Positions 42,305-54,096 of a DNA stretch of 64,000 nt are shown one piece after another. The translations under genes were made by a program, and so were the position numbers. The first letter of the stretch is position 1, and each line of letters opens with the position of its first letter. The DNA comes from a candidate division WOR-3 bacterium. GTDB lineage: Bacteria > Hydrothermota > 32-111. The notes beneath the pieces were generated by a model. It was not told where the DNA came from. It did not search any database and was given only the letters and a program-made list of their open reading frames with translations. The DNA lies in NCBI GenBank assembly GCA_037481815.1, contig JBBFKX010000001.1, positions 1,373 to 65,372 on the forward strand, read 5' to 3'.

Positions 42305-42409
42305 ATTAAAAGATTCTAAATTTATTTTTAATTTACTGCATTTAAAAAAGTAGAAATTTTTTTAATAAGTAGGGATTCAAAAAGAATTTGAAATGAAAAA
42401 AGTCAAAAA

Positions 42410-42429
42410 GTCAAGCACCGTCCCCGAAA
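42410..42429. repeat. Left copy of a ~29-bp imperfect inverted repeat flanking the R-M / DarTG island (core GTCAAGCACCGTCCCCGAAA).
   Basis: Reverse complement TTTCGGGGACGGTGCTTGACtttttgact matches the right copy TTTTGGGGACGGTGCTTGACaatttgaca at 48874-48902: core 19 of 20 nt, extended about 25 of 29. Confidence 0.75.
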
Positions 42430-42574
42430 TATACTTATAATTTTTTTTATCCAGAATTTTTACATAGAAATATTGTTGAAAAGTAAAAATATTTTTAATA
42501 TAATAAAACTAAAAATGAAAAGTAAAAAAACATTTTAAACTATTGATTAGAATGAATTTTTTGGATGAAATCAA

Positions 42575-45271
42575 ATGAAATTAACTTTTGAGTCAAATTT
42601 AGATTTTCAATTAAAGGCAGTCAATTCTACAGTGAATCTTTTTGAGGGACAACAAAGGGGTGCCGGTACTGTTAAGTTTACCTTTAATAAAAATGATCCT
42701 GAAGAATTATTTTCGGGAATAAATAGTATTGGTAATCGTCTTGCAATCTCAAATGAACAAATTTATAAAAATCTTTCCGAAATACAGAAAAATAATGAAA
42801 TAAGTGTTGTCACAGAAGAAGAATTTAAAGATAATGGATTGAATTTTACCGTAGAAATGGAAACCGGTACGGGTAAAACTTATGTGTACCTTCGAACTAT
42901 TTACGAACTTAATAAAAAATATGGCTTTAAAAAATTCGTCATCGTCGTACCTTCTATTGCTATCCGGGAAGGAGTTTTGAAAAACCTTGAAATTACCTTT
43001 GAACATTTTCAAAATCTTTACGATAATGTGCCCGTAAATTATTATGTTTATGATAGCAGTAAAGTTTCTTCTTTGCGTTCTTTTGCAACCAATAACAGCA
43101 TTGAGATTCTGGTAATCAATATTGATTCCTTTGCTAAAGATGAAAATATCATCAATCGTCCGAATGATAGATTAAGCGGTCTGGAACCTATAAAATTTAT
43201 TCAAGCCACAAATCCCATTGTGATAGTGGATGAGCCGCAAAATATGGAGACTGAAAAAAGAAAAAATGCGATTAACAGTTTAAATCCACTATGCACGCTT
43301 CGTTATTCAGCAACTCATAAGAATTTGTACAACCTTGTCTATAGCCTAAATCCAGTAAAAGCATATGATCTTGGTCTTGTAAAACAAATTGAAGTGGACT
43401 CCGTAGTGGAAGAAAATGCGCATAATGATGCTTACATTGCCGTTGAAGAAATCAAATCTCAGAAAACAAAAATAACAGCACGGCTATCTATCTATTCAAG
43501 CGTACCCAATGGAATTATAAAAAAAAGCATTACCGTAAAAGTGGGTGATGACCTTTTTCAATTGTCCGGGAATTATCAACCATACAAAGATAGATTCATA
43601 GTTGAAGAAATAGATGTAGCCAATCAAACCATTACCTTTTCCAATGGTATCACTTTGAATAGCGGCTCATCACGCGGCGGAATGGCCGATGAAATTATGC
43701 ATTTTCAGATACAACGAACCATAGAAGAACATCTCAAAAAAGAACTAAAATTATACAAACAAGGCATCAAAATACTTTCACTATTTTTTATTGATCGTGT
43801 TGCCAGTTATCGCTACTACGATGAACAGGGAAATCCACAAAAAGGAAAAATTGCACAATGGTTTGAGGAGGAATATAGAAATAGTATAAATAGAAATGAA
43901 TTTTTAGAACTAAAAAAACTTTTTCATCCTGATGATAAAATAGACATAGAAAAAATCCATAACGGCTATTTTTCGCAAGACAAAAAAGGAAGACTCAAGG
44001 ATACTCGCGGAGAAAGTGAAGACGACCTTAATACCTATGATTTAATAATGAAAGATAAAGAAAAATTGCTAGATATACAAACACCATTACGTTTTATTTT
44101 TTCTCATTCTGCTTTGCGTGAGGGCTGGGACAACCCGAATGTATTTCAGATCTGTACACTAAACGAAACAAAATCAGAACTCAAAAAACGGCAGGAAATT
44201 GGTAGAGGACTCAGACTTGCAGTCAATCAAAACGGACAAAGGATTTATGATAAAAACATCAATCGATTGACAGTAATTGCCAATGAATCGTATGAATCTT
44301 TTGCCAAACAATTACAAACCGAGATTGAAGAAGAGTGTGGTGTAAGCTTTAAAGGTAGAATCAAAAACAAACGCGAACGAATTGCCATCAAATACCGCAA
44401 AGGTTTTGAAGTCGATCCAAAATTCCTTGAAATATGGGAAAAAATTAAATATAAAACTCGATACAGAGTGGAATATCAAACCACAGAATTAATAAATAAT
44501 GCTGCTGAAGAGATTCAATTTTTGCCACCGACTCCGTCTCCATCGATCAAAGCCACAAAAGTAAAAATGGATATTACCGACGAAGGTATCGATACATCGT
44601 TAGTGGGCGAAAGACGGGAAAAATATGGAAATAAACATTTATGGCTATTACCTGATATGATTGAATATATTCAGCAAAAAACAGAACTGACAAGAAATAC
44701 TATCAAAGAAATTCTTGATAAAGCCAATCGCTGGAACAATTTTTTTGTCAATCCACAATATTTTTCTGATCAATGTGTGTCTGTTATCAAAAGAACACTT
44801 GCAGAATTTTTAGTAGATGGCATCAAGTACGAAAAAATTAGCGGACAATACTATGAAATGCGTCTTTTTGAAATGCAAGAACTGGAAACCTATCTGGATA
44901 CTTTTACCTTCCAAGTGAACAACAAAGAAAAAACCATTTATGAAGAATATATTCCTCTGGACTCAAGCGTAGAAAGTCAATTTGCAAAAGATTGCGAAAC
45001 AAGTGAAAATGTGGAGTTCTATTTCAAACTTCCCGGTTGGTTCAAAATTCCAACACCGATTGGTTATTACAACCCCGACTGGGCAGTAGTTTTGAAAAAC
45101 GAAAAGAAAATCTACTTTGTAGCCGAAACCAAAGACACAGGTGGCGATAAAATCGATATCTCAAAACTTCATCCCGATGAACAGATGAAAATCAAATGTG
45201 GCGAAAAACATTATAAAGTGTTTAATGGTGTGGAATATAAAGTAGTGAAAAGGGTGAGTGATTTGATATGA
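42575..45271 (+). CDS. res: Type III restriction enzyme Res subunit (SF2 helicase plus C-terminal PD-(D/E)xK nuclease).
   Basis: Helicase motif I METGTGKTY, motif II VIVDEPQNM, motif VI QEIGRGLR. C-terminal nuclease core YNPDWAVV...YFVAETK. 898 aa. Confidence 0.8.
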   Translation: MKLTFESNLDFQLKAVNSTVNLFEGQQRGAGTVKFTFNKNDPEELFSGINSIGNRLAISNEQIYKNLSEIQKNNEISVVTEEEFKDNGLNFTVEMETGTGKTYVYLRTIYELNKKYGFKKFVIVVPSIAIREGVLKNLEITFEHFQNLYDNVPVNYYVYDSSKVSSLRSFATNNSIEILVINIDSFAKDENIINRPNDRLSGLEPIKFIQATNPIVIVDEPQNMETEKRKNAINSLNPLCTLRYSATHKNLYNLVYSLNPVKAYDLGLVKQIEVDSVVEENAHNDAYIAVEEIKSQKTKITARLSIYSSVPNGIIKKSITVKVGDDLFQLSGNYQPYKDRFIVEEIDVANQTITFSNGITLNSGSSRGGMADEIMHFQIQRTIEEHLKKELKLYKQGIKILSLFFIDRVASYRYYDEQGNPQKGKIAQWFEEEYRNSINRNEFLELKKLFHPDDKIDIEKIHNGYFSQDKKGRLKDTRGESEDDLNTYDLIMKDKEKLLDIQTPLRFIFSHSALREGWDNPNVFQICTLNETKSELKKRQEIGRGLRLAVNQNGQRIYDKNINRLTVIANESYESFAKQLQTEIEEECGVSFKGRIKNKRERIAIKYRKGFEVDPKFLEIWEKIKYKTRYRVEYQTTELINNAAEEIQFLPPTPSPSIKATKVKMDITDEGIDTSLVGERREKYGNKHLWLLPDMIEYIQQKTELTRNTIKEILDKANRWNNFFVNPQYFSDQCVSVIKRTLAEFLVDGIKYEKISGQYYEMRLFEMQELETYLDTFTFQVNNKEKTIYEEYIPLDSSVESQFAKDCETSENVEFYFKLPGWFKIPTPIGYYNPDWAVVLKNEKKIYFVAETKDTGGDKIDISKLHPDEQMKIKCGEKHYKVFNGVEYKVVKRVSDLI

Positions 45272-45918
45272 ATAGCCAATTAGAAGATATAAAATTATAC
45301 AGAATGACTCACATAGAAAACATACCACATATTTTACAACATGGTATTGCGCATAAAAATTCAAAGTTTGCTAATGCAGAATATAAAAATATTGGGGACT
45401 TTTCATTGATATCAGCGCGTGAAAGAAAAACAATAAATATTACAAATGGTAATAATAATATCATAAAGACAATAATCTTAGGAGATTTCATCCCTTTTTA
45501 TTTCAATGTAAAAATGCCCATGCTTTATGTTATCCAGCATGGAGGCAACTTTACCACAAAAACTTCATCATCGGACATAGTTTACCTGGTATGTTCCCTT
45601 TATAAAATAGTTCAATTAGATAATATTGAATGCTACTTTTGTGATGGGCATGCCACTGATAACTTAACAACTTTTTATGATAGTAGTTTTATTAAGCAAA
45701 TAGGAAATATTATTGATTGGACGGCAGTCACATCTCAATACTGGGGCGGTGAAAATAATTTAGAGGTAAAAAGAAAAAAACAGGCTGAATTTTTAGTAAA
45801 GGGAGATTTACCTGTTGAAGTAATTGAATATTTTATTTGCTATGATGAGATAGCAGAGGAAAAACTAAAAAAATTTGGTGTTAAATCAATCAGGATAGAT
45901 AAAAATGCCTATTATTGA
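45268..45918 (+). CDS. darT: DarT (DUF4433) ssDNA thymidine ADP-ribosyltransferase toxin.
   Basis: LYRMTHIENIPHILQHGI, PFYFNVKMPMLYVIQHGG, CDGHA, and the catalytic-glutamate motif KQAEFLV closely match the characterised DarT family (e.g. Thermus aquaticus DarT). ATGA overlap with the res stop. Confidence 0.85.
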   Translation: MNSQLEDIKLYRMTHIENIPHILQHGIAHKNSKFANAEYKNIGDFSLISARERKTINITNGNNNIIKTIILGDFIPFYFNVKMPMLYVIQHGGNFTTKTSSSDIVYLVCSLYKIVQLDNIECYFCDGHATDNLTTFYDSSFIKQIGNIIDWTAVTSQYWGGENNLEVKRKKQAEFLVKGDLPVEVIEYFICYDEIAEEKLKKFGVKSIRIDKNAYY

Positions 45919-45929
45919 GGAGGTTGATT

Positions 45930-46982
45930 ATGATAAAATTCACAACAGGAAATATTCTTGAAAGCGAGGCACAGGCTCTGGTTAATACTGTTAACACCGT
46001 TGGAGTTATGGGAAAAGGCATTGCTTTGCAATTCAAAAAATCCTTCCCGGATAATTTTAATGCCTATGCAAAAGCCTGCAAAAGTAAGGAAATTGAAATT
46101 GGTAAAATGTTTGTATTCAAAGAAAATACCCTTTCGGGCGAAAAAATCATTATCAACTTCCCCACCAAAAAAGATTGGCGAAAACCCTCTGAATACGAAT
46201 ATATTGAAAAAGGACTGGACGACCTGATTCGTGTTATCAAAGAATATAATATCAAAAGTATTGCTATCCCCCCTTTAGGCGCTGGAAGTGGCGGACTCTT
46301 GTGGGAAAAGGTAAAAACTATTATTCAAAATAAATTAGGCAGTTTAGATATAGATATTTTCGTTTATGAACCCTCAAGAGAAATACAGGAAAAACTAAAA
46401 AAAGAAAGAGTAAAACTAACAGATGCAAGGGCTTTGATGCTGTATGTGCTTTATGAACTGGTACGACAGGGCGAATATGTATCCGAATTCTCTGCTGAAA
46501 AAGTTTGTTATTTCCTTCAAAAATTTGGTGCGGAGGAATATTTCAAACTAACATATAAACCCAACTTTTATGGTCCTTATTCCGGGAAGGTTAGATATGT
46601 GCTTAACTATTTAAATGGTAGTTACATCATGGGATATAGCGATATAACTAAAAAACCTTTTGAACCCCTTTTACTTATAGCCGATCGATACGATGAAGTG
46701 AACCGATACATACAATCCAATAAAAAATTACAAAATATTGCTCAAAAAACCATACAATTTCTTGATGGTTTTTTTTCCGATTTTGCACTTGAACTATTGT
46801 CCACAGTTGACTGGATAATGAAAGAAAAACAAACAGATAATTTTGATGTAATTAAACAAGAAATCACAAACTGGAACTACAAAAAACGAAGTAAATTCTC
46901 TAATGACAAATACATTCAAATAGCCATTGAACATATAAAAAATTTTCATAAAAGGATAACCCTATGGACGGACAAAACTTAG
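45930..46982 (+). CDS. darG: DarG macrodomain antitoxin (N-terminal macro domain plus C-terminal DarT-binding domain).
   Basis: MIKFTTGNILESEAQALVNTVNTVGVMGKGIALQFKK...INFPTKKDWRKPS...IAIPPLGAGSGGL is a canonical DarG macrodomain. GAGGAGG RBS. Starts 11 nt after the darT stop. Confidence 0.85.
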   Translation: MIKFTTGNILESEAQALVNTVNTVGVMGKGIALQFKKSFPDNFNAYAKACKSKEIEIGKMFVFKENTLSGEKIIINFPTKKDWRKPSEYEYIEKGLDDLIRVIKEYNIKSIAIPPLGAGSGGLLWEKVKTIIQNKLGSLDIDIFVYEPSREIQEKLKKERVKLTDARALMLYVLYELVRQGEYVSEFSAEKVCYFLQKFGAEEYFKLTYKPNFYGPYSGKVRYVLNYLNGSYIMGYSDITKKPFEPLLLIADRYDEVNRYIQSNKKLQNIAQKTIQFLDGFFSDFALELLSTVDWIMKEKQTDNFDVIKQEITNWNYKKRSKFSNDKYIQIAIEHIKNFHKRITLWTDKT

Positions 46983-48829
46983 ACATAAAAAAAGACATTC
47001 TCAACAAACTCAAAGAACTTATTCCCAATTGTTTTACCGAAGGTAAAATCGATTGGGAAAAACTCAAAGTATTTTTGGAAGATAACATTGAATTTCAAAA
47101 CGAACGCTATCACCTTAATTGGGCTGGCAAAACCGATGCCTTTCGTTTGTTGCAGTCGCCTACATACAAAACATTAAAACCCTGCCGTGAAGAAAGCGTT
47201 AACTTTGACGAAACCGAAAATCTCTTTATAGAAGGCGATAATCTGGAAGTGCTGAAAATTTTGCAAAAATCCTACTTTGGTAAAATCAAAATGATATACA
47301 TAGACCCGCCTTACAATACGGGAAATGATTTTATCTACAAAGATGATTATACAGAAACCCTTGCCGGATACAAAAGAAAAGTTGGCGATGTGGACGAAAA
47401 CGGCAATGTTACCCGTGCAGAACTTTTCCGTAATACAAAAGAAAACGGGCAATACCATTCTAATTGGCTTACTATGATGTACCCCCGACTTTTTCTTGCC
47501 CGCAACCTATTGCGTGATGATGGCGTAATCTTTGTAAGCATCGACGACAACGAAGTCCACAACCTGCGACTTATGATGGATGAAATTTTTGGAGAGGAGA
47601 ATTTTATTGTTAATGCTATTTGGGAAAAAGTTAAAATTAGAAAAAATTCTGCGGTCTGGTTTTCTGATTCTCATGATCATATCCTCATTTATGTTAAAAA
47701 TAAAGAATTATCAAAAAGAAATTTATTACCAAGAATAGATACTAGAATGTATAAAAATCCAGACAATGATCCAAGAGGACCATGGATACCAATACCTATA
47801 CATGCTAACCATAAATATGATGCAAATTATAAAATTGTAAAGCCTAATGGTATAGTTTTAGAAAGACCCAAAAATAACTATTGGAGGTTAAGTGAAAAAA
47901 AATTTAATGAATATGTAAAAGATAATAGAATATGGTGGGGCGAAGGATCTAGTTATCCTATGATTAAAAAGTTTTTATCAGAGGTTCAACAAGGGTTAGT
48001 TCCCAAAAGTATATTTTATTATGATGAAGTTGGAGGTAATCCTCATGGTGATGCGGAATTAAAAAAACTATTTGAAGGTAAAAAAATTTTTGAAAATCCA
48101 AAATGTATTAAATTAATAAAAACATTTTTACAAATTTCCACTTCTCCCTCCGACCTTATCCTTGACTTCTTCGCCGGCTCCGGCACCACTGCCCATGCGG
48201 TGATGGAACTCAACAAAGAAGATGGGGGAAATCGTAAGTTTATCCTTGTCCAACTACCCGAACCCACAGCCCCCGATAGTGAAGCATTCAAAGCAGGCTA
48301 CAAAACCATTGCCGATATTGCCAAAGAACGCATCCGCCGTGCCGCAAAGAAAATTCAGGGTGAACTCGATGAAGAAAAAAAGAAAAAAGGAGAAGAACTG
48401 CCATTAGAACCAACCCAACAAAAAAAATTAGACCTTGGTTTCAAAGTATTTAAACTGGATGAAAGCAACTTCAAACAATGGCGCCCCTTTGTGCCTGAGA
48501 GTGAAGAAGAGATAAAACAAGCTGTACTGGATTTTACCGAAAATATCAAGTTTGAAGCTACTGTGGAAAACATTCTTTATGAACTGATACTCAAAAACGG
48601 CAAAAAACTTACAGACGAAATTGAAAAGAAAAATGGATATTATGTTGTAAACAACAATGAACTTGTTTTGCTACTGGAAAGTGTGGAAAAATCGGTAATA
48701 GACGAAGTATTATTGCTTAAACCTCAAAAGGTAGTGGCACTGGATAAGTTATTTAATGGCAATGACCAATTAAAAACAAATACTGTGTTGCAATTTAGAG
48801 ATGAAGGAATAGAGTTTAAGAGTGTATGA
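46964..48829 (+). CDS. mod: Type III R-M Mod subunit: N6-adenine DNA methyltransferase (beta class).
   Basis: Motif IV IYIDPPYNTGNDF precedes motif I DFFAGSGTTAHAV (beta-class order). Central AT-rich variable (TRD) region. Overlaps the darG end by 19 nt. Confidence 0.85.
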   Translation: MDGQNLDIKKDILNKLKELIPNCFTEGKIDWEKLKVFLEDNIEFQNERYHLNWAGKTDAFRLLQSPTYKTLKPCREESVNFDETENLFIEGDNLEVLKILQKSYFGKIKMIYIDPPYNTGNDFIYKDDYTETLAGYKRKVGDVDENGNVTRAELFRNTKENGQYHSNWLTMMYPRLFLARNLLRDDGVIFVSIDDNEVHNLRLMMDEIFGEENFIVNAIWEKVKIRKNSAVWFSDSHDHILIYVKNKELSKRNLLPRIDTRMYKNPDNDPRGPWIPIPIHANHKYDANYKIVKPNGIVLERPKNNYWRLSEKKFNEYVKDNRIWWGEGSSYPMIKKFLSEVQQGLVPKSIFYYDEVGGNPHGDAELKKLFEGKKIFENPKCIKLIKTFLQISTSPSDLILDFFAGSGTTAHAVMELNKEDGGNRKFILVQLPEPTAPDSEAFKAGYKTIADIAKERIRRAAKKIQGELDEEKKKKGEELPLEPTQQKKLDLGFKVFKLDESNFKQWRPFVPESEEEIKQAVLDFTENIKFEATVENILYELILKNGKKLTDEIEKKNGYYVVNNNELVLLLESVEKSVIDEVLLLKPQKVVALDKLFNGNDQLKTNTVLQFRDEGIEFKSV

Positions 48830-48873
48830 CGATGAGAAAAAAAATAAATAAAAAGACCATTACATTTATAGAA

Positions 48874-48902
48874 TTTTGGGGACGGTGCTTGACAATTTGA
48901 CA
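48874..48902. repeat. Right copy of the inverted repeat flanking the island (TTTTGGGGACGGTGCTTGACAATTTGACA); it also contains -35-like TTGACA hexamers.
   Basis: See the left copy. It is followed by TTGACA-N18-TAAAAT (48897-48926), a plausible outward-facing promoter toward the carbamoyltransferase operon. Confidence 0.7.
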
Positions 48903-49082
48903 TTTTTTTACAAGTTATATTAAAATTTAAACTTACATTTAAAATAAAAAATTTTTTCTTTTCATTTTATTAAGCAAAAATGTAAAGTATTTTTGAATTA
49001 ATGAAAAATCAAAATTAACAAAATTTTTAATATTGATAAAACTTTATTTTTTGTTAAAATAAAAAGTTAAAATTAAGGAGGT

Positions 49083-50900
49083 TTGATGTATATACTTGGA
49101 TTAAATATAGGGCATGATGCTACAGCGACACTTTTAAAAGATGGAAGGATTATTGCTGCAGTAGCAGAGGAAAGGATTTCAAGGGTAAAATTTCATTTCG
49201 GGTTTCCATATGGTTCTATAAAGGAATGTATTAGAATAGCAAAAATAGATGGAAAAGATATAAAAAATGTTGTTCTATCTTTTGAAAATGATATTTTGAG
49301 AAGTCCCTTTCATTATACTGATCTTATAGTGAAAAGAAGTGGAACAATTGACCCATCAAATGAGATAGATAATAGAAAAAAGTTTGATACTATAAAAGAA
49401 ATATTGTACAGAAAAATTATTGGAGAAAAAAAGTACTGGAAACTTGCATCAGAATATGCTAAAAAATCTATAACTGATGCTTTGAAAAAGTGTGGTTTGG
49501 TTGAATTTACACTTGAATCAGTTAATCATCATCTTTGTCATGCTGCTTCATGTTATTATGAAGGTGGGAAAAATAAAGCACTGATTATAACTATGGATGG
49601 AGCAGGTGATGGACTTTCTGCAACAGTTTCAATTGGAGAAGATGGTAAGATAAAAAGGATTCTTGAAGTAGAGGATATATATTCTGTTGGAAGGTTTTAT
49701 TCAGCAATAACAAAATTTCTTGGATTTAAAAGAAATAGACATGAAGGGAAGATAACAGGCCTTGCAGCATACGGTAATCCTAATAAACTTTACGATAAGT
49801 TCAAACAAATGATAGATATAACCCCAGATGGGAAAAGTTTTTATTCACCACTTGCTGGTAATCTAAAAGGAGATTCTTTGAGGTTAAAGCAGTTTAAAGA
49901 TTTTTTGAAAGGAAAATATTATGGACATAATTATACAAACCTTTATCTTGAATTTTTGAAGAAAAATTGTTCAAATGAATCAAAAGAGGATATTGCAGCA
50001 GCAGCACAGAAATTAACAGAAGATTTAGTTGTAAAATTTATAGAACCACATATAAAAAATACAGGCATAAAAGATATAGTTCTTGCAGGTGGTCTTTTCT
50101 CAAACGTAAAAGTGAATCAGAGGGTTCTTGAAATTGAAGGTGTTGAATCAGTTTTTATCCATCCAAATATGGGTGATGGTGGAACATCGACAGGAGCATG
50201 TTATATTAAATGGGCAGAAGAGGTTGAAAAGAAAGGAGAAAAATTTTTACCATTTACCATTGATAATGTTTACTATGGGCCTGAATATAATGATGATGAA
50301 ATTTTGAAAGTTTTAAAAGATTTTGAAAGTAAAGTTGAATTTAGAAAAAGTGATAATATCGTTGAAGAGACAGCGCAAATGATAAAAGATAAAGTTGTTG
50401 TTGGCTGGTTTCAAGGGAGAATGGAATATGGTCCGAGGGCTCTTGGAAACCGTTCAATTCTATTTGATCCTACTGACAAAAAGATAAACGATTGGTTAAA
50501 CAAAAGATTAAAAAGAACAGAGTTTATGCCTTTTGCTCCATCCTGTATTTATGAGGAAGCAAAAAATGTTTTTGAGAATTTCGAAAAGGGAAGTTATCCT
50601 TCTTATTTTATGACTATAACTTTTAATGTAAAAGAGGAATGGAGAAAGAAAATTGAAGCTGTTAACCATGTAGATAATACCGCAAGGCCTCAGACTGTCA
50701 AAGAAAATCAAAATCCTTTATACTATAAACTTTTGAAAAGGTATAAAGAATTGACAGGACTTCCGCTTTTTGTTAATACAAGTTTTAATATGCATGAAGA
50801 ACCTATACTTTGTTCACCTGTTGATGCTGTGAGATCGCTCCTTAATAACTGTGTTGATATTCTCGTTATAGGTAATTACATAGTCAAGCAGAAAAAATAA
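49083..50900 (+). CDS. NodU/CmcH-family carbamoyltransferase.
   Basis: N-terminal ILGLNIGHDATATLLKDGRIIAAVAEERISRVK (ASKHA / YgjD-like fold of Carbam_trans_N). C-terminal Carbam_trans_C. 605 aa. AAGGAGG RBS. Confidence 0.8.
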   Translation: MMYILGLNIGHDATATLLKDGRIIAAVAEERISRVKFHFGFPYGSIKECIRIAKIDGKDIKNVVLSFENDILRSPFHYTDLIVKRSGTIDPSNEIDNRKKFDTIKEILYRKIIGEKKYWKLASEYAKKSITDALKKCGLVEFTLESVNHHLCHAASCYYEGGKNKALIITMDGAGDGLSATVSIGEDGKIKRILEVEDIYSVGRFYSAITKFLGFKRNRHEGKITGLAAYGNPNKLYDKFKQMIDITPDGKSFYSPLAGNLKGDSLRLKQFKDFLKGKYYGHNYTNLYLEFLKKNCSNESKEDIAAAAQKLTEDLVVKFIEPHIKNTGIKDIVLAGGLFSNVKVNQRVLEIEGVESVFIHPNMGDGGTSTGACYIKWAEEVEKKGEKFLPFTIDNVYYGPEYNDDEILKVLKDFESKVEFRKSDNIVEETAQMIKDKVVVGWFQGRMEYGPRALGNRSILFDPTDKKINDWLNKRLKRTEFMPFAPSCIYEEAKNVFENFEKGSYPSYFMTITFNVKEEWRKKIEAVNHVDNTARPQTVKENQNPLYYKLLKRYKELTGLPLFVNTSFNMHEEPILCSPVDAVRSLLNNCVDILVIGNYIVKQKK

Positions 50901-52048
50901 TGAAATTTTCATCTGTAATTTGTTTTGCTGGCGGTGATTGGTGGTATCACCATCCTCATTCATACAACCATTTGATGAAAGAGTTTTCTAAAGAAAAAAA
51001 AGTTTTGTATGTTAATTCATTACCTGTTGGTATAGGTTTTAGTGCAGGGAAGAAAGGTTTTTTAAGAAAAATAAATAATAAGTTGTTAAGCATAATAAGG
51101 TTTTTAAAGAAAGAGAATAAAAATCTTTATATTTTCACTCCATTTTTTATACCTTTTAAAGATAATCATTTAATTTTAAATCTAAATACTTTACTTTTAC
51201 TTTTTCAGATTAAACTTATTGAAAAAATTTTTAAGTTTAAAGATCCAATATACTGGATAACAAATCCAAACGGATATATTTTCGTAAGAGGTATAAAATC
51301 AAAAAAAATCGTGTATCAGATTGTCGATAAAGTTCAGGAGTATAAATACGCTGGAAAATCTGTTGAAGATTTTGATAAAAGGTTATGCGAAAAATCTTTG
51401 ATCATTTTAACACCAGGGAAAATGATATATGAAGAGAAAAGAAAAGATTTTGGAGAAAAAGTTTACAGGTTGAAACATGGTGTTGATATCAAACATTTCA
51501 GTAAAATCGTGAAAGAAAAACCGGAAGATTTTCCGAAAACTGACAAACCGGTTTTTACCTATTGGGGATCGATAGATTATAAAAAGGTTGATTACAAACT
51601 TTTAAAATTTTTGGAAGAGAAAACAACAGAATTTTGTTTTCTGTTTATAGGAAAAATTTTCGATTTTAAGTATGAGGATTTTAAAGATAGTAAGAAGATA
51701 TTTTTTGTCGGTGAAAAAACATATCTGGAACTACCTTCTTATGCAACATTTTCAACAGGTTTTATAATCCCCTGGGATAGCGAGGATCAGATGAATAGAC
51801 ACGCTTCTCCAATAAAATTGAGAGAGTATCTCACAACAGGTAAACCTGTTGTAACAACATACATCCCTGAGTTTGATGAATTCAAGGATCTTATCTATAT
51901 TTCAAAAACTTATGAGGAGTTTTACAATAATTTGAACAGAGCGCTGAAAGAAGACGACAGTATAAAAAAGAGAAGAAAAAATCAAGTTTCAAACGAAGGA
52001 TGGGAGAATGTTTTTAAAGAGGTTAACACTATTATCGATAGTGTTTAA
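50900..52048 (+). CDS. Putative glycosyltransferase (GT-B fold, GT4-like).
   Basis: VICFAGGDWWYHHPHS N-terminus typical of some GT-B enzymes. Tightly coupled to the carbamoyltransferase gene (ATGA-style overlap). Weak assignment. Confidence 0.4.
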   Translation: MKFSSVICFAGGDWWYHHPHSYNHLMKEFSKEKKVLYVNSLPVGIGFSAGKKGFLRKINNKLLSIIRFLKKENKNLYIFTPFFIPFKDNHLILNLNTLLLLFQIKLIEKIFKFKDPIYWITNPNGYIFVRGIKSKKIVYQIVDKVQEYKYAGKSVEDFDKRLCEKSLIILTPGKMIYEEKRKDFGEKVYRLKHGVDIKHFSKIVKEKPEDFPKTDKPVFTYWGSIDYKKVDYKLLKFLEEKTTEFCFLFIGKIFDFKYEDFKDSKKIFFVGEKTYLELPSYATFSTGFIIPWDSEDQMNRHASPIKLREYLTTGKPVVTTYIPEFDEFKDLIYISKTYEEFYNNLNRALKEDDSIKKRRKNQVSNEGWENVFKEVNTIIDSV

Positions 52049-53333
52049 TGTTTATTTGATTATTTTCTCGCAGGAAACAACACTCATAATACCACCTTTT
52101 CAACATTCGATGGGTTATTATAAAGCGAATTCAACGATAGCAAAAATGGTGTTGAAGAAGAATGTAAAGTTTGAAAGGGTTGGAGGTATCTGTGCTTTGA
52201 AATTGAAACAACTCGATGATAGAACAACAGACAAGGATGATGCTATATTAACTTTGTTTGGTTTAAACAATCATCAGATAGTTTACAACGTTGGTTTAAG
52301 TAAAATAAAAACTTATGGTCAAAAAGGTAGAGGGGAGTCACCAGAATCTTTGTACTATCCTACTGATATAGTCGCTACAGCTGATGGTGAGATCTACATT
52401 TCCGATACTTACAATTTTAGAGTATTAAAATTTATTTACGATGAAGATTCTCTATTGTTTGAAAGGTCTTTTGGATCGTTTGGTATGGATTCTTTTTCTC
52501 TGAATATTCCAGAAGGTATAGATTATGACGGGAACGACAATCTTTTTATATGTGATAGCAGGAATGATCGAATTCTTGTGATAGATAAAAATTTTAACCC
52601 TTTTATGATCCTTGATAATATTCAGAATCCCCATTCAATCTGTGTTGTTGATCCTAAAAAAGGTTATCTGAATCTAAAAGAAAAAATTTTCCTTGTTGTC
52701 TCTTCGGATCGAAGAAGATTGCTCAAACTCGATTTTTATGGAAACATGATCAAAGAGTTTTTTTCTTTTGATATAACAAAATACAAAGATGTGGATTTCA
52801 ATTTTATCGATTACGATCAGAATGGTAACATTTATGTTACAGATACTATAAACAGTTGTATACACAAGTTTGATAGCGATTTAAAATACATAACGAGTTT
52901 TGGCAGAGAGGGAGCAGGGAAAAACCAGTTCTTAAAGCCAGAAGGTATATCGATCTATAGAAAGTATGGGCAGGTGTTTATATCTGAAAAAACTGGATTT
53001 CAATATTACTGGATAGGTGTTGATGGATATATTAAAGAGTTTACTCCTCCGGTTTTGACTGATACAACAGAAGGTTTGACGATTTCTCTTTTCACAACAG
53101 AACAATGCAGAGTCACAATAGAGATCACAAAAGATGGGAAGTTTGTTAGAGAGTTGACATCAGATCTTAGAAGGAATATCGGATTGAACTATATCGTATG
53201 GGATCTTAAAGATGACAAGGGCAACAGAATAGTTGAGAATGGGAAATATAAATTTAAAGTTATTCTTGAACCTTTATATTCTTCGAGGGGTTATTTTAAA
53301 AGGGAATTATATGGGGAGATTGAAAAGTTTTAG
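52008..53333 (+). CDS. NHL-repeat beta-propeller protein with a signal peptide.
   Basis: Repeated NHL-like blades: YPTDIVATADGEIYISDTYNFRVLKF, GIDYDGNDNLFICDSRNDRILVID, GNIYVTDTINSCIHKFD, PEGISIYRKYGQVFISE. Confidence 0.65.
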   Translation: MFLKRLTLLSIVFNVYLIIFSQETTLIIPPFQHSMGYYKANSTIAKMVLKKNVKFERVGGICALKLKQLDDRTTDKDDAILTLFGLNNHQIVYNVGLSKIKTYGQKGRGESPESLYYPTDIVATADGEIYISDTYNFRVLKFIYDEDSLLFERSFGSFGMDSFSLNIPEGIDYDGNDNLFICDSRNDRILVIDKNFNPFMILDNIQNPHSICVVDPKKGYLNLKEKIFLVVSSDRRRLLKLDFYGNMIKEFFSFDITKYKDVDFNFIDYDQNGNIYVTDTINSCIHKFDSDLKYITSFGREGAGKNQFLKPEGISIYRKYGQVFISEKTGFQYYWIGVDGYIKEFTPPVLTDTTEGLTISLFTTEQCRVTIEITKDGKFVRELTSDLRRNIGLNYIVWDLKDDKGNRIVENGKYKFKVILEPLYSSRGYFKRELYGEIEKF

Positions 53334-54096
53334 TTTTTTTGTTTTTCTTTTCTTTTTTTCTCTTTTGAACGCACAGAGGATCGTTTCATTTGCTCCAAAT
53401 ATTACAGAGACACTTTTCTTTCTATCTTACGATAGATATCTTGTTGGTCGAACATCTTTCTGTGATTATCCTGAAGAAGCAAAAAAGATCGAAATCGCAG
53501 GTTCTTTTATAGATGTTGATTTTGAAAAGTTGTTATATTTAAAGCCAGACATAGTTTTCTTTTCAGGTAATCTAACGGAGAAAACTGAAATCTTTTTGAA
53601 AGAAAAGAACATTAGATATTACAATATCAAAATGGAAAAAATAGACGATATCATAGAAGGTATAAAAAATATAACAGAGATCGTTGGGAAAGATTATGAT
53701 ACTGTGAAGGTGAACGATTTAAGAAATAGAATCTCAAATATTAAAAAGATTGATGATGGGAAGAAGGTTATCGTTGAAGTGAGTGAGAAACCTTTTATGG
53801 TTGCAACATCTTCAAGTTATATTGGCTCTCTTTTAAAACTTTCAGGTTATAAAATTGTAGAAAGTGAAAAACCTTACATAAACCTTTCATATGAAAAGAT
53901 TCTCTCTTTTAAACCAGACATTGTTGTATTTATGCATACATTTCATGATGCGAAGAACAAATATTCATTGTTGAAAAATTTTAAAAAGATGAAGTTTCTT
54001 TTTCTTGATGATGAAAAAATAGATATTTTTTCAAGACCGGGCCCAAGAGTTGTGGATGCCATAGATATAATCGAAAAGGATTTTTGTGAAAGATAA
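53311..54096 (+). CDS. ABC transporter periplasmic substrate-binding protein (class III / TroA-BtuF-like; iron-siderophore or cobalamin).
   Basis: Signal peptide, then RIVSFAPNITETLFFLS...DIVFFSG, typical of BtuF/FhuD-like binding proteins. Start chosen at MGRLKSF. Confidence 0.65.
   Translation: MGRLKSFSFFVFLFFFSLLNAQRIVSFAPNITETLFFLSYDRYLVGRTSFCDYPEEAKKIEIAGSFIDVDFEKLLYLKPDIVFFSGNLTEKTEIFLKEKNIRYYNIKMEKIDDIIEGIKNITEIVGKDYDTVKVNDLRNRISNIKKIDDGKKVIVEVSEKPFMVATSSSYIGSLLKLSGYKIVESEKPYINLSYEKILSFKPDIVVFMHTFHDAKNKYSLLKNFKKMKFLFLDDEKIDIFSRPGPRVVDAIDIIEKDFCER

What the first reader, a model, noticed from the sequence alone, without database searches (positions are those of the whole stretch)
47590..48125. 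Abrupt compositional mosaic inside the mod gene: AT-rich target-recognition-domain cassette between GC-richer conserved methyltransferase motifs
Roughly 47590-48120 within mod is markedly AT-richer (long A/T runs, codons like AAA/AAT/ATA) than the flanking 5' part (motif IV DPPY region) and 3' part (motif I FFAGSGTTAHAV region, e.g. CCGGCTCCGGCACCACTGCCCATGCGG). The boundaries are sharp.

This is the signature of TRD swapping by recombination, the mechanism that generates allelic specificities in Type III mod genes. The specificity domain was probably acquired from a lower-GC donor.
Basis: seen in the sequence. Interest (0 to 1): 0.55.

Follow-up and report, generated by a model that had tools for sequence, protein, structure and literature searches.

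The report
Swapped specificity domain in mod gene
The AT-rich stretch is the DNA-recognition module of a Type III restriction-modification methylase, and it has been exchanged by recombination between conserved gene arms, a well-known way of changing specificity; its AT-richness is shared by the whole gene family and says nothing about a donor.

Summary
Inside mod (46964-48829), third-codon-position GC (GC3) drops from about 0.41 to 0.13 and rises again. Maximum-likelihood change points fall at 47600 and 48136.

The block is the target-recognition domain (TRD), and it is exchangeable. Twelve of the 15 closest full-length homologues keep arms 80-95% identical in protein but carry TRDs only 18-31% identical. 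A syntenic relative (L001) has a 100% identical res gene and a 99% identical mod 3' arm. Its mod 5' arm is 93% identical, its TRD is unrelated, and a different gene fills the res-mod gap. DNA homology breaks at 47605/47606 and returns at 48119-48145, matching the compositional steps.

The "lower-GC donor" inference is not supported. In 62 of 62 family loci, with host GC3 from 0.10 to 0.70, the TRD is AT-richer than both arms. In 60 of 62 it is AT-richer than host codon usage predicts. This holds even where TRD and arms have diverged together to synonymous saturation. The arms here are also abnormal, being GC-richer than the host.

This is a new member of a known kind (modA, modH-type allelic TRD variation). 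No simple-sequence repeat is present, so it is not a phasevarion.

The parts
46964..48829 (+). mod, the Type III beta-class N6-adenine DNA methyltransferase (621 aa)
   Evidence: PF01555 at E 4.7e-35. Matches solved Mod structures 6k0w (E 3e-82) and EcoP15I Mod 4zcf (E 5e-70). DPPY lies at aa 114-117 and FAGSGTT at aa 403-409.
46964..47605 (+). mod 5' conserved arm (N-terminal domain plus methyltransferase motifs IV-VIII), ending in ...DEIFGEENF
   Evidence: GC3 is 0.39-0.42. Protein identity is 80-95% in homologues whose TRDs differ. It is 93% nt identical to L001, with 44 differences spread evenly. Identical runs of 29-65 nt with L001, L006, L008 and L010 (22 nt with L011) are the kind of stretch homologous exchange is thought to need.
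47606..48118 (+). Exchangeable TRD cassette (aa 215-385); its compositional bounds are 47600-48136
   Evidence: GC3 is 0.14. It cannot be aligned with L001, L006, L008, L010 or L011. Protein identity is 18-31% in 12 of the 15 closest full-length homologues and 84-94% in P0001-P0003. It spans the region that does not align with EcoP15I Mod (query 250-362), whose TRD is aa 263-384 (PMC4490356).
48119..48214 (+). 3' junction: return of homology, motif I (LDFFAGSGTTAHAVMEL) and a short very GC-rich shoulder
   Evidence: Differences from L001 are dense to 48145, sparse to 48190 and absent from 48191. GC3 is 0.73 in 48137-48214.
48191..48829 (+). mod 3' arm (motifs I-III and C-terminal domain), nearly identical to L001
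   Evidence: Only 5 differences in 48191-48840. dS is 0.044 for codons 464-621.
42575..45271 (+). res, the Type III restriction subunit (898 aa)
   Evidence: Pfam ResIII, DEAD and RE_endonuc. It is 100% nt identical to L001 over 42396-45219, with dS 0.006.
45268..46982 (+). darT and darG, an accessory cassette in the res-mod slot and part of the tract replaced relative to L001
   Evidence: PF14487 DarT at E 1e-42 and PF01661 Macro at E 1.3e-24. L001 has an OLD-family nuclease in the same place.
42396..42430 (.). Left arm of the 35-nt inverted repeat that brackets the res...mod island
   Evidence: 89% complementary to 48873-48907. The core GGGGACGGTGCTTGAC occurs only at these two sites in the window, with 0 expected by chance. 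It is also at both ends of the island in L001 and upstream of res in L011. The 100% identity to L001 begins at 42396.
48873..48907 (.). Right arm of the inverted repeat
   Evidence: It lies 44 nt after the mod stop codon. Near-identity to L001 continues to 49043.

Best explanation
The AT-rich block encodes the target-recognition domain of a Type III Mod methyltransferase, together with short adjoining pieces of the methyltransferase fold including motif X. The TRD sets which DNA sequence the Mod2Res1 enzyme methylates and restricts.

In this family the TRD behaves as a replaceable cassette. The two arms stay similar enough between alleles for homologous recombination; in the closest clade, identical runs with W reach 29-65 nt in the 5' arm of four alleles. 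A crossover in each arm replaces everything between them.

In this window's lineage, or in that of its syntenic relative, one such replacement covered about 2.9 kb. It ran from the 3' end of res to the motif I region of mod (about 45270-48190). It changed the accessory defence cassette, the mod 5' arm and the TRD together. The rest of the island stayed essentially identical.

The compositional mosaic is real, but it belongs to the gene family. TRD-coding DNA is AT-richer at synonymous sites than the arms and the host in essentially every member. It therefore marks the cassette boundaries but does not identify a donor.

Shown: the composition step, the domain identity, the allelic TRD diversity on conserved arms, the DNA breakpoints and the family-wide bias. 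Inferred: that the mechanism was RecA-type homologous exchange, that one block rather than two was replaced, and the direction of the change. The recognition sequence is unknown.
For: Composition:
- GC3 is 0.145 against 0.43 and 0.51, outside the 1st and 99th percentiles of other genes. Change points lie at 47600 and 48136.

Domain identity:
- PF01555.
- EcoP15I Mod aligns only outside query residues 250-362. Its TRD is aa 263-384, between motifs IV-VIII and X, I-III (PMC4490356).

Allelic diversity:
- P0004 is 95/95/24/94/99% identical over residues 1-110, 111-209, 210-388, 389-463 and 464-621.
- P0005-P0015 have arms 80-92% identical over 1-110, 111-209 and 389-463, and TRDs 18-31% identical.
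- P0001-P0003 share the TRD at 84-94%.

Syntenic comparator L001:
- Flanking housekeeping genes have dS 0.7-2.7.
- res has dS 0.006.
- The mod 5' arm has dS 0.18-0.50.
- The TRD is unalignable.
- mod codons 464-621 have dS 0.044.
- Differences map the breakpoints to 45220-45270, 47605/47606 and 48119-48190.

The TRD has moved between backbones:
- Between W and L002, the proportion of synonymous differences (pS) is 0.34 in the TRD and 0.60-0.67 in arm codons 1-214 and 464-621.

Family-wide bias:
- The TRD is AT-richer than both arms in 62/62 loci.
- It falls below the host codon-usage expectation in 60/62, by a mean of 0.17.
- TRD GC3 tracks host GC3 with slope 0.49; the arms track it with slope 0.85.

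Controls:
- In res, the least and most conserved thirds differ by only 0.03 in GC3.
- Accessory cassettes in the slot are 0.065 below the host, and the TRD is a further 0.10 lower.

Precedent:
- The modA12 recognition domain has significantly lower GC than the 5' and 3' regions (PMC3311624).
- H. influenzae mod has a hypervariable central region with a recombination breakpoint next to it (PMC1557822).
Against: - No donor allele with near-identical sequence was found for the replaced block, so the event is inferred from one pairwise comparison plus more distant alleles.
- The 5' arm is 93% rather than about 80% identical to L001. Several partial conversions, rather than one event, could produce the same pattern.
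- Most sequences are from metagenome-assembled genomes. Chimeric assembly across a conserved arm could mimic a swap. This is unlikely for W, because an independent Logan assembly carries an identical mod protein and three other contigs carry the same TRD.
- The pS comparison between an AT-skewed TRD and balanced arms is biased, because saturation levels differ.
- The cause of the family-wide AT bias was not established.
Confidence: 0.8

Rival explanations
1. The TRD of this allele was imported recently from a lower-GC organism. Its AT-richness is the donor's composition, not yet ameliorated.
For: TRD GC3 is 0.14, below the host's 0.27 and below the 1st percentile of host genes. The same TRD type occurs in L003, whose neighbouring genes have GC3 0.20. 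TRD GC3 follows host GC3 with only half the slope of the arms, as expected for shorter residence. The same reading was given for modA12 (PMC3311624).
Against: - The TRD is AT-richer than the host expectation in 60/62 loci, including hosts already at GC3 0.19-0.26. Random donors could not produce a one-sided deviation.
- W-type TRDs in L003 and L004 have diverged as far as their arms (TRD 84-85% protein identity, arms 71-89%, synonymous sites saturated). They still have GC3 0.13-0.19 against 0.23-0.33 in the arms.
- The unrelated TRD of L001 has the same GC3, 0.16.
Confidence: 0.15
2. A recombination-dependent composition model. The arms are recombination-hot and are kept GC-rich by GC-biased repair of heteroduplex. 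The TRD has many non-homologous alleles, seldom meets a homologous partner, and drifts towards the AT-rich mutational equilibrium.
For: - Across 37 loci the GC3 order is arms 0.495, host 0.448, slot cassettes 0.383, TRD 0.285.
- In the close clade GC3 is highest next to the TRD: 0.46-0.55 in codons 111-214 against 0.30-0.43 in codons 1-110, and 0.73 in the 26 codons after the TRD.
- Arms stay at GC3 0.4-0.55 in low-GC hosts despite dS of about 0.7-1.7 between them.
- Divergence from L001 rises towards the TRD on both sides.
Against: - It has not been tested directly. My attempt to polarise substitutions was uninformative because of saturation.
- In the wider family the segment after the TRD is often not GC-richer than the C-terminal part.
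- The strength of GC-biased conversion in bacteria is itself debated (my own knowledge).
Confidence: 0.15
3. There was no exchange. The composition step only reflects amino-acid content and weak constraint in a fast-evolving domain.
For: The TRD is the least conserved part of the protein. In mod, the least conserved third of columns has lower GC3 than the most conserved third in 81/82 sequences.
Against: - After correcting for amino-acid content with host codon tables, the TRD is still 0.17 below expectation.
- In res the same conservation contrast is only 0.03.
- TRDs at 18-31% identity sit on arms at 80-95%. The abrupt loss of DNA alignment at 47605/47606 next to 93% identical sequence is replacement, not gradual divergence.
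Confidence: 0.03
4. The arms are the foreign part. The mod backbone came from a GC-richer lineage, and the TRD is closer to native composition.
For: Arm GC3 of 0.39-0.51 is above the 99th percentile of host genes. Raw GC of the TRD is within the host range. The whole res...mod island is laterally shared with L001.
Against: TRD GC3 is itself below the 1st percentile of host genes. res, from the same island, has host-like GC3 of 0.28. The same arm-TRD contrast occurs in high-GC hosts where the arms match the host.
Confidence: 0.07

Closest known systems
Allelic modA, modB and modD genes of Neisseria and Haemophilus influenzae (PMC3311624, PMC1557822)
   Same: Type III mod genes with conserved 5' and 3' regions and a hypervariable central recognition domain. 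Alleles are generated by horizontal exchange with breakpoints next to the variable region. The recognition domain of modA12 has significantly lower GC than the flanks. The semi-conserved motif EYIxVxxK inside the variable region (PMC1557822) corresponds to HDHILIYVK here.
   Different: This gene has no simple-sequence repeat tract, so it is not phase-variable. Gene order is res...mod, with a toxin-antitoxin pair between. The hosts are uncultivated environmental bacteria. Alleles with 80-95% identical arms occur in MAGs labelled as different phyla.
Domain movement (DoMo) of TRDs between Type III mod genes in Helicobacter pylori (PMC3467074, PMC3575425)
   Same: TRD sequences move between mod genes through recombination in flanking conserved sequence. 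W and L002 share a TRD that is less diverged than their arms.
   Different: DoMo was described between non-orthologous mod genes within one genome. Here no second mod gene is present in the window, and the comparison is between orthologous loci of different genomes.
EcoP15I Mod (PDB 4zcf; PMC4490356)
   Same: A beta-class methyltransferase with the TRD inserted between motifs IV-VIII and X, I-III. The arms align at E 5e-70.
   Different: The TRD does not align. The exchangeable block here (171 aa) is wider than the structural TRD of EcoP15I (122 aa) and includes motif X (NPK, aa 378-380).
H. pylori-type Mod structure (PDB 6k0w)
   Same: The best solved relative, at E 3e-82. The alignment runs through the TRD, with shared YKNPDNDP.G.WI and WR.S motifs, so the W-type TRD belongs to a widespread TRD class.
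   Different: Identity within the TRD is too low to transfer a recognition sequence.
TRD shuffling in Type I hsdS genes (my own knowledge)
   Same: Specificity changes through recombination of TRD cassettes between conserved regions.
   Different: That involves a separate specificity subunit with two TRDs, often with site-specific invertases and silent cassettes. None of these is present here.

Membership tests
Type III R-M Mod (beta-class N6-adenine methyltransferase) | N6_N4 methyltransferase fold | tested here: met
   PF01555 at E 4.7e-35, 122 bits against a cut-off of 26.7.
Type III R-M Mod (beta-class N6-adenine methyltransferase) | Motif order IV (DPPY), then TRD, then X, then I (FxGxG) | tested here: met
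   DPPY at aa 114-117, NPK at 378-380 and FAGSGTT at 403-409. This order is the one described for EcoP15I (PMC4490356).
Type III R-M Mod (beta-class N6-adenine methyltransferase) | Sequence homology to solved Type III Mod subunits | tested here: met
   6k0w at E 3.3e-82 and 4zcf (EcoP15I Mod) at E 4.9e-70.
Type III R-M Mod (beta-class N6-adenine methyltransferase) | Partner Res subunit with SF2 helicase and C-terminal endonuclease in the same operon | tested here: met
   res at 42575-45271 has ResIII, DEAD and RE_endonuc domains. Gene order is res-darT-darG-mod with overlapping stops and starts.
Type III R-M Mod (beta-class N6-adenine methyltransferase) | Hemimethylation of an asymmetric site and ATP-dependent cleavage | not testable with these tools
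   Needs a methylome and biochemistry.
Allelic mod genes with exchangeable TRD (modA, modH type) | Conserved 5' and 3' regions with unrelated central regions among alleles | tested here: met
   Arms are 80-95% identical and TRDs 18-31% identical in 12 of the 15 closest full-length homologues.
Allelic mod genes with exchangeable TRD (modA, modH type) | Recombination breakpoints at the borders of the variable region | tested here: met
   Homology to L001, L006, L008, L010 and L011 ends at 47605. It resumes at 48065-48149, depending on the allele.
Allelic mod genes with exchangeable TRD (modA, modH type) | Lower GC in the recognition domain than in the flanks | tested here: met
   Reported earlier for modA12 (PMC3311624).
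Allelic mod genes with exchangeable TRD (modA, modH type) | Different TRDs give different methylation motifs | not testable with these tools
   Needs SMRT or nanopore methylomes.
Phasevarion (phase-variable mod) | Simple-sequence repeat tract in or before the mod reading frame | tested here: not met
   No repeat array lies in 46964-48829 apart from a 17-nt A-rich stretch of 2.1 copies.
DoMo (TRD movement between non-orthologous mod genes of one genome) | A second mod gene in the same genome sharing the TRD or the arms | tested here: inconclusive
   The ORFs listed around the island (43000-54000) include no second mod gene, but the window was not searched systematically and the rest of the genome is not available. 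L008 carries orphan mod arms 6 kb downstream of its mod.

The most novel reading that the evidence does not exclude
The AT-richness of the TRD may be a standing, recombination-dependent effect rather than a relic of import. The conserved arms exchange often between alleles and would be held GC-rich by GC-biased conversion. The TRD exists as many non-homologous alleles, is effectively never in heteroduplex, and would decay to the AT-rich mutational equilibrium in every host. If so, Type III mod genes, and perhaps other genes built from a cassette between conserved arms, would give a built-in within-gene measure of GC-biased gene conversion across prokaryotic phyla.

A second reading is also not excluded. 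The res...mod island would be a unit bounded by inverted repeats, in which the accessory defence cassette, the mod 5' arm and the TRD are exchanged as one block. Specificity and accessory immunity would then change together.
Probability: 0.15. Interest if true: 0.6.

Novelty: new member of a known kind. Interest (0 to 1): 0.3.

Why it matters
For this window, the finding means the restriction-modification system's specificity was reset by cassette exchange. Closely related genomes therefore carry different methylation and restriction specificities, and different accessory defences, at the same chromosomal site.

More generally, the family-wide result is a caution. A low-GC TRD is routinely read as evidence of foreign origin. 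Here that signal is present in every member regardless of host composition and residence time, so it cannot be used that way.

The one-sided bias is unexplained. The order is arms, then host, then accessory cassettes, then TRD. It could be used to test ideas on what sets synonymous GC content in bacteria.

Tried and rejected
- **TRD-only protein search.** It returned only fragments of 300 aa or less, the best at 71% identity. It did not even list P0001-P0003, so it gave no information on the TRD on other backbones.
- **Metagenome scan with the TRD.** No result.
- **Viral contigs.** Only 24 loci were found, with best-segment identity to the query of 58% or less. This gives no support for a phage reservoir for this clade, but it does not exclude one.
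- **Exact-protein look-up of a housekeeping gene for host taxonomy.** Not on record. Its syntenic relative is labelled only 'MAG: bacterium'.
- **Polarising synonymous changes by singletons, to ask whether the arms are at compositional equilibrium.** Rejected as uninformative. Saturation and majority-rule bias gave an impossible equilibrium GC3 of 0.65 for a TRD whose GC3 is 0.12.
- **Phase variation.** No repeat tract.
- **Amino-acid composition and general conservation as the cause of the composition step.** Rejected.
- **Promoter and terminator scan of the island.** Counts were at the shuffled expectation, and nothing was specific to the TRD borders.
- **Antisense ORFs at 47174-47458 and 48043-48291.** Not followed up. 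I took them to be by-products of composition.
Full report
**1. The observation**

mod is the 621-codon ORF at 46964-48829. The 290 nt before it have GC 0.417 and the 225 nt after it have 0.507. The window mean is 0.321.

The step is mainly at synonymous sites. GC3 is 0.145 in the block, against 0.43 and 0.51 beside it. GC2 hardly differs on the 5' side.

Other genes of the window have GC3 of 0.19-0.36, mean 0.27. Sliding windows of the same size in those genes put the block below their 1st percentile (0.152). They put both adjoining segments above their 99th percentile.

A two-change-point likelihood fit on GC3 places the boundaries at 47600 and 48136. Its gain is 21.6, against at most 10.9 in 100 permutations.

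- The centre is not unusual in raw GC for this genome; 12% of windows are as low. The GC-rich 3' shoulder is in the top 0.05%.
- The very GC-rich part after the block is short. GC3 is 0.73 in 48137-48214 and 0.32 afterwards.

**2. What the block is**

The protein is an N6/N4 DNA methylase (PF01555, E 4.7e-35). It carries DPPY at residues 114-117 and FAGSGTT at 403-409.

It matches two solved Type III Mod subunits. With EcoP15I Mod (4zcf) the alignment covers residues 15-249 and 363-465 and skips the centre. In EcoP15I the TRD is residues 263-384, inserted between motifs IV-VIII and X, I-III (PMC4490356). The AT-rich block (residues 215 to about 390) therefore contains the TRD plus short adjoining pieces, including motif X (NPK, 378-380).

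The partner genes are present. res (ResIII helicase plus endonuclease) lies at 42575-45271. darT and darG lie between res and mod, and all four genes have overlapping stops and starts.

**3. Evidence for exchange from homologues**

I split identity to the closest database proteins into five segments: residues 1-110, 111-209, 210-388, 389-463 and 464-621.

| Homologue | Identity per segment (%) |
|---|---|
| P0004 | 95 / 95 / 24 / 94 / 99 |
| P0005-P0015 | 80-92 in segments 1, 2 and 4; 18-31 in the centre |
| P0001-P0003 | same centre at 84-94; other segments 70-97 |

In the alignment, conservation stops at ...DEIFGEENF (residue 214). It resumes fully at SDLILDFFAGSG (about residue 397). At least a dozen unrelated centres occur among 19 sequences. 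This is the pattern that defines allelic mod genes.

**4. A syntenic comparator fixes the breakpoints**

Locus L001, a 407-kb contig of GCA_030017465.1, is syntenic with window 37040-58858. The flanking housekeeping genes are far apart, with dS 0.7-2.7. The island between them is not:

| Window coordinates | Content | Comparison with L001 |
|---|---|---|
| 42396-45219 | intergenic region plus res | 100% identical; res dS 0.006 |
| 45270-46963 | darT-darG | replaced by one OLD-family ATPase/TOPRIM gene |
| 46964-47605 | mod 5' arm | 93% identical, 44 evenly spread differences; dS 0.18-0.50 |
| 47606-48118 | TRD | unalignable; L001's TRD is 608 nt long with GC3 0.16 |
| 48119-48190 | 3' junction | differences thin out |
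| 48191-49043 | mod 3' arm and downstream | identical apart from 5 substitutions and one 29-nt indel |
| from 49044 | next gene onward | background divergence resumes |

The DNA breakpoints coincide with the compositional change points within 6 and about 17 nt.

The simplest reading is as follows. The 6.6-kb island was shared recently between the two lineages. One internal tract of about 2.9 kb was then replaced in one of them. That tract comprises the accessory cassette, the 5' arm, the TRD and about 70 nt of the 3' arm. I cannot tell which lineage changed. Two separate events remain possible.

**5. The same TRD on other backbones**

L002 carries the W-type TRD in a different genomic context. 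Between W and L002, the proportion of synonymous differences (pS) is 0.34 in the TRD. It is 0.60-0.67 in arm codons 1-214 and 464-621. The TRD is therefore younger than the arms it sits in. This holds with the caveat that AT-skewed sites saturate at a lower level.

Between W and alleles with other TRDs, identical runs of 29-65 nt lie in the 5' arm (L001, L006, L008, L010; 22 nt for L011). In the 3' arm the longest runs are 17-26 nt, apart from L001, which is identical over 368 nt. Such runs are the kind of stretch homologous exchange is thought to need (my own knowledge).

**6. The donor inference fails**

I took 81 family loci from the genome collection and contig look-ups. For each I compared GC3 of the segments with GC3 of neighbouring genes.

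Sixty-two loci had enough neighbouring sequence for a host codon table, which corrects for amino-acid content:
- The TRD is AT-richer than both arms in 62/62.
- The TRD is AT-richer than the host expectation in 60/62, by a mean of 0.17.
- TRD GC3 follows host GC3 with slope 0.49, against about 0.85 for the arms.
- The arms sit slightly above the host, by 0.07 and 0.03.

Examples:

| Locus | Host GC3 | Arm GC3 | TRD GC3 |
|---|---|---|---|
| L035 | 0.65 | 0.69-0.77 | 0.25 |
| L037 | 0.70 | 0.62-0.86 | 0.33 |

Two controls were run:
- In res, the least and most conserved thirds of columns differ by only 0.03. This is not a general conservation effect.
- The swappable accessory cassettes in the mod-res gap are 0.065 below the host. 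The TRD is a further 0.10 lower.

W-type TRDs in L003 and L004 have diverged as much as their arms. Protein identity is 84-85% in the TRD and 71-89% in the arm segments, and synonymous sites are saturated. Their TRDs are still AT-richer than the arms, at 0.13-0.19 against 0.23-0.33.

A one-sided, host-independent and persistent bias cannot be the signature of a particular low-GC donor. These data argue against it for this family.

**7. What causes the bias**

This was not resolved. One candidate is a TRD pool carried by AT-rich mobile DNA. Another is a recombination-dependent effect, with GC-biased conversion in the arms and none in a TRD that lacks a homologous partner.

Some clade-level features fit the second idea:
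- GC3 peaks next to the TRD.
- The arms keep GC3 at 0.4-0.55 in hosts at 0.19-0.27 despite dS near 1.
- Divergence from L001 rises towards the TRD.

The pattern is not uniform across the wider family. My substitution-polarity test was uninformative.

**8. Comparison with known systems and novelty**

The system matches allelic Type III mod genes in its defining sequence features: conserved arms, unrelated centres, breakpoints at the borders and a low-GC centre. The comparison systems are modA, modB and modD of Neisseria and Haemophilus, and the domain movement described for Type III mod genes in H. pylori (PMC1557822, PMC3311624, PMC3467074).

It is not a phasevarion, because no repeat tract is present.

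It is a new member of a known kind. What goes beyond the known cases:
- The breadth of the AT bias.
- The spread of near-identical arms across MAGs labelled as different phyla.
- The joint replacement of the accessory cassette, the 5' arm and the TRD.

**9. Limits**

- Nearly all comparators are metagenome assemblies.
- The recognition motif is unknown.
- The direction and number of exchange events are inferred from few sequences.

Noticed in passing
window 45268-46982: A DarT/DarG toxin-antitoxin pair (PF14487 at E 1e-42; Macro at E 1.3e-24) sits inside the Type III operon as res-darT-darG-mod, with overlapping stops and starts. The syntenic relative L001 has an OLD-family ATPase/TOPRIM nuclease in exactly this slot. 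L008 has DarTG, and L003 and L014 have nothing there.
   Followed up: partly
loci L001-L088 (gap between mod and res): In 42 of 63 family loci that hold both genes, the gap carries 1-5 ORFs of at least 100 aa. Their domains are of defence or toxin type: OLD/GajA-like, AAA_21 with DUF4276 (HEC-01), GmrSD, Abi_2, HepT/MNT, Fic, RhuM, Dcm with Vsr, and Schlafen/AlbA. The operon interior appears to be a cargo slot for accessory immunity genes.
   Followed up: partly
window 42396-42430 and 48873-48907: A 35-nt inverted repeat, 89% complementary, brackets the res...mod island. Its core GGGGACGGTGCTTGAC occurs nowhere else in the window, twice in L001 at the same places, and once upstream of res in L011. 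The left arm starts exactly where 100% identity to L001 starts. These may be ends of a mobile unit or a shared regulatory element.
   Followed up: partly
window 42396-45219 and 48191-49043: res and the 3' part of mod are 100% and about 99% identical in DNA to L001, although neighbouring housekeeping genes have dS 0.7-2.7. The island was therefore exchanged recently between two clearly diverged genomes at the same chromosomal site.
   Followed up: yes
L008 17234-17860 and 17872-18525: About 6 kb downstream of its intact mod, this Cyclobacteriaceae MAG has two orphan ORFs. One equals the mod C-terminal arm, starts at MELNKEDGG, and corresponds to W residues 414-621. It is followed by one that equals the N-terminal arm and stops right after ...GENF, at the 5' TRD border. 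Both are about 81-82% identical in DNA to W. They may be footprints of, or substrates for, TRD-border recombination.
   Followed up: partly
window 42575-48829 compared with family loci: The closest clade (W, L001, L003, L008, L010, L011, L014) has the order res then mod. L004 and the rest of the family have the usual mod then res.
   Followed up: no
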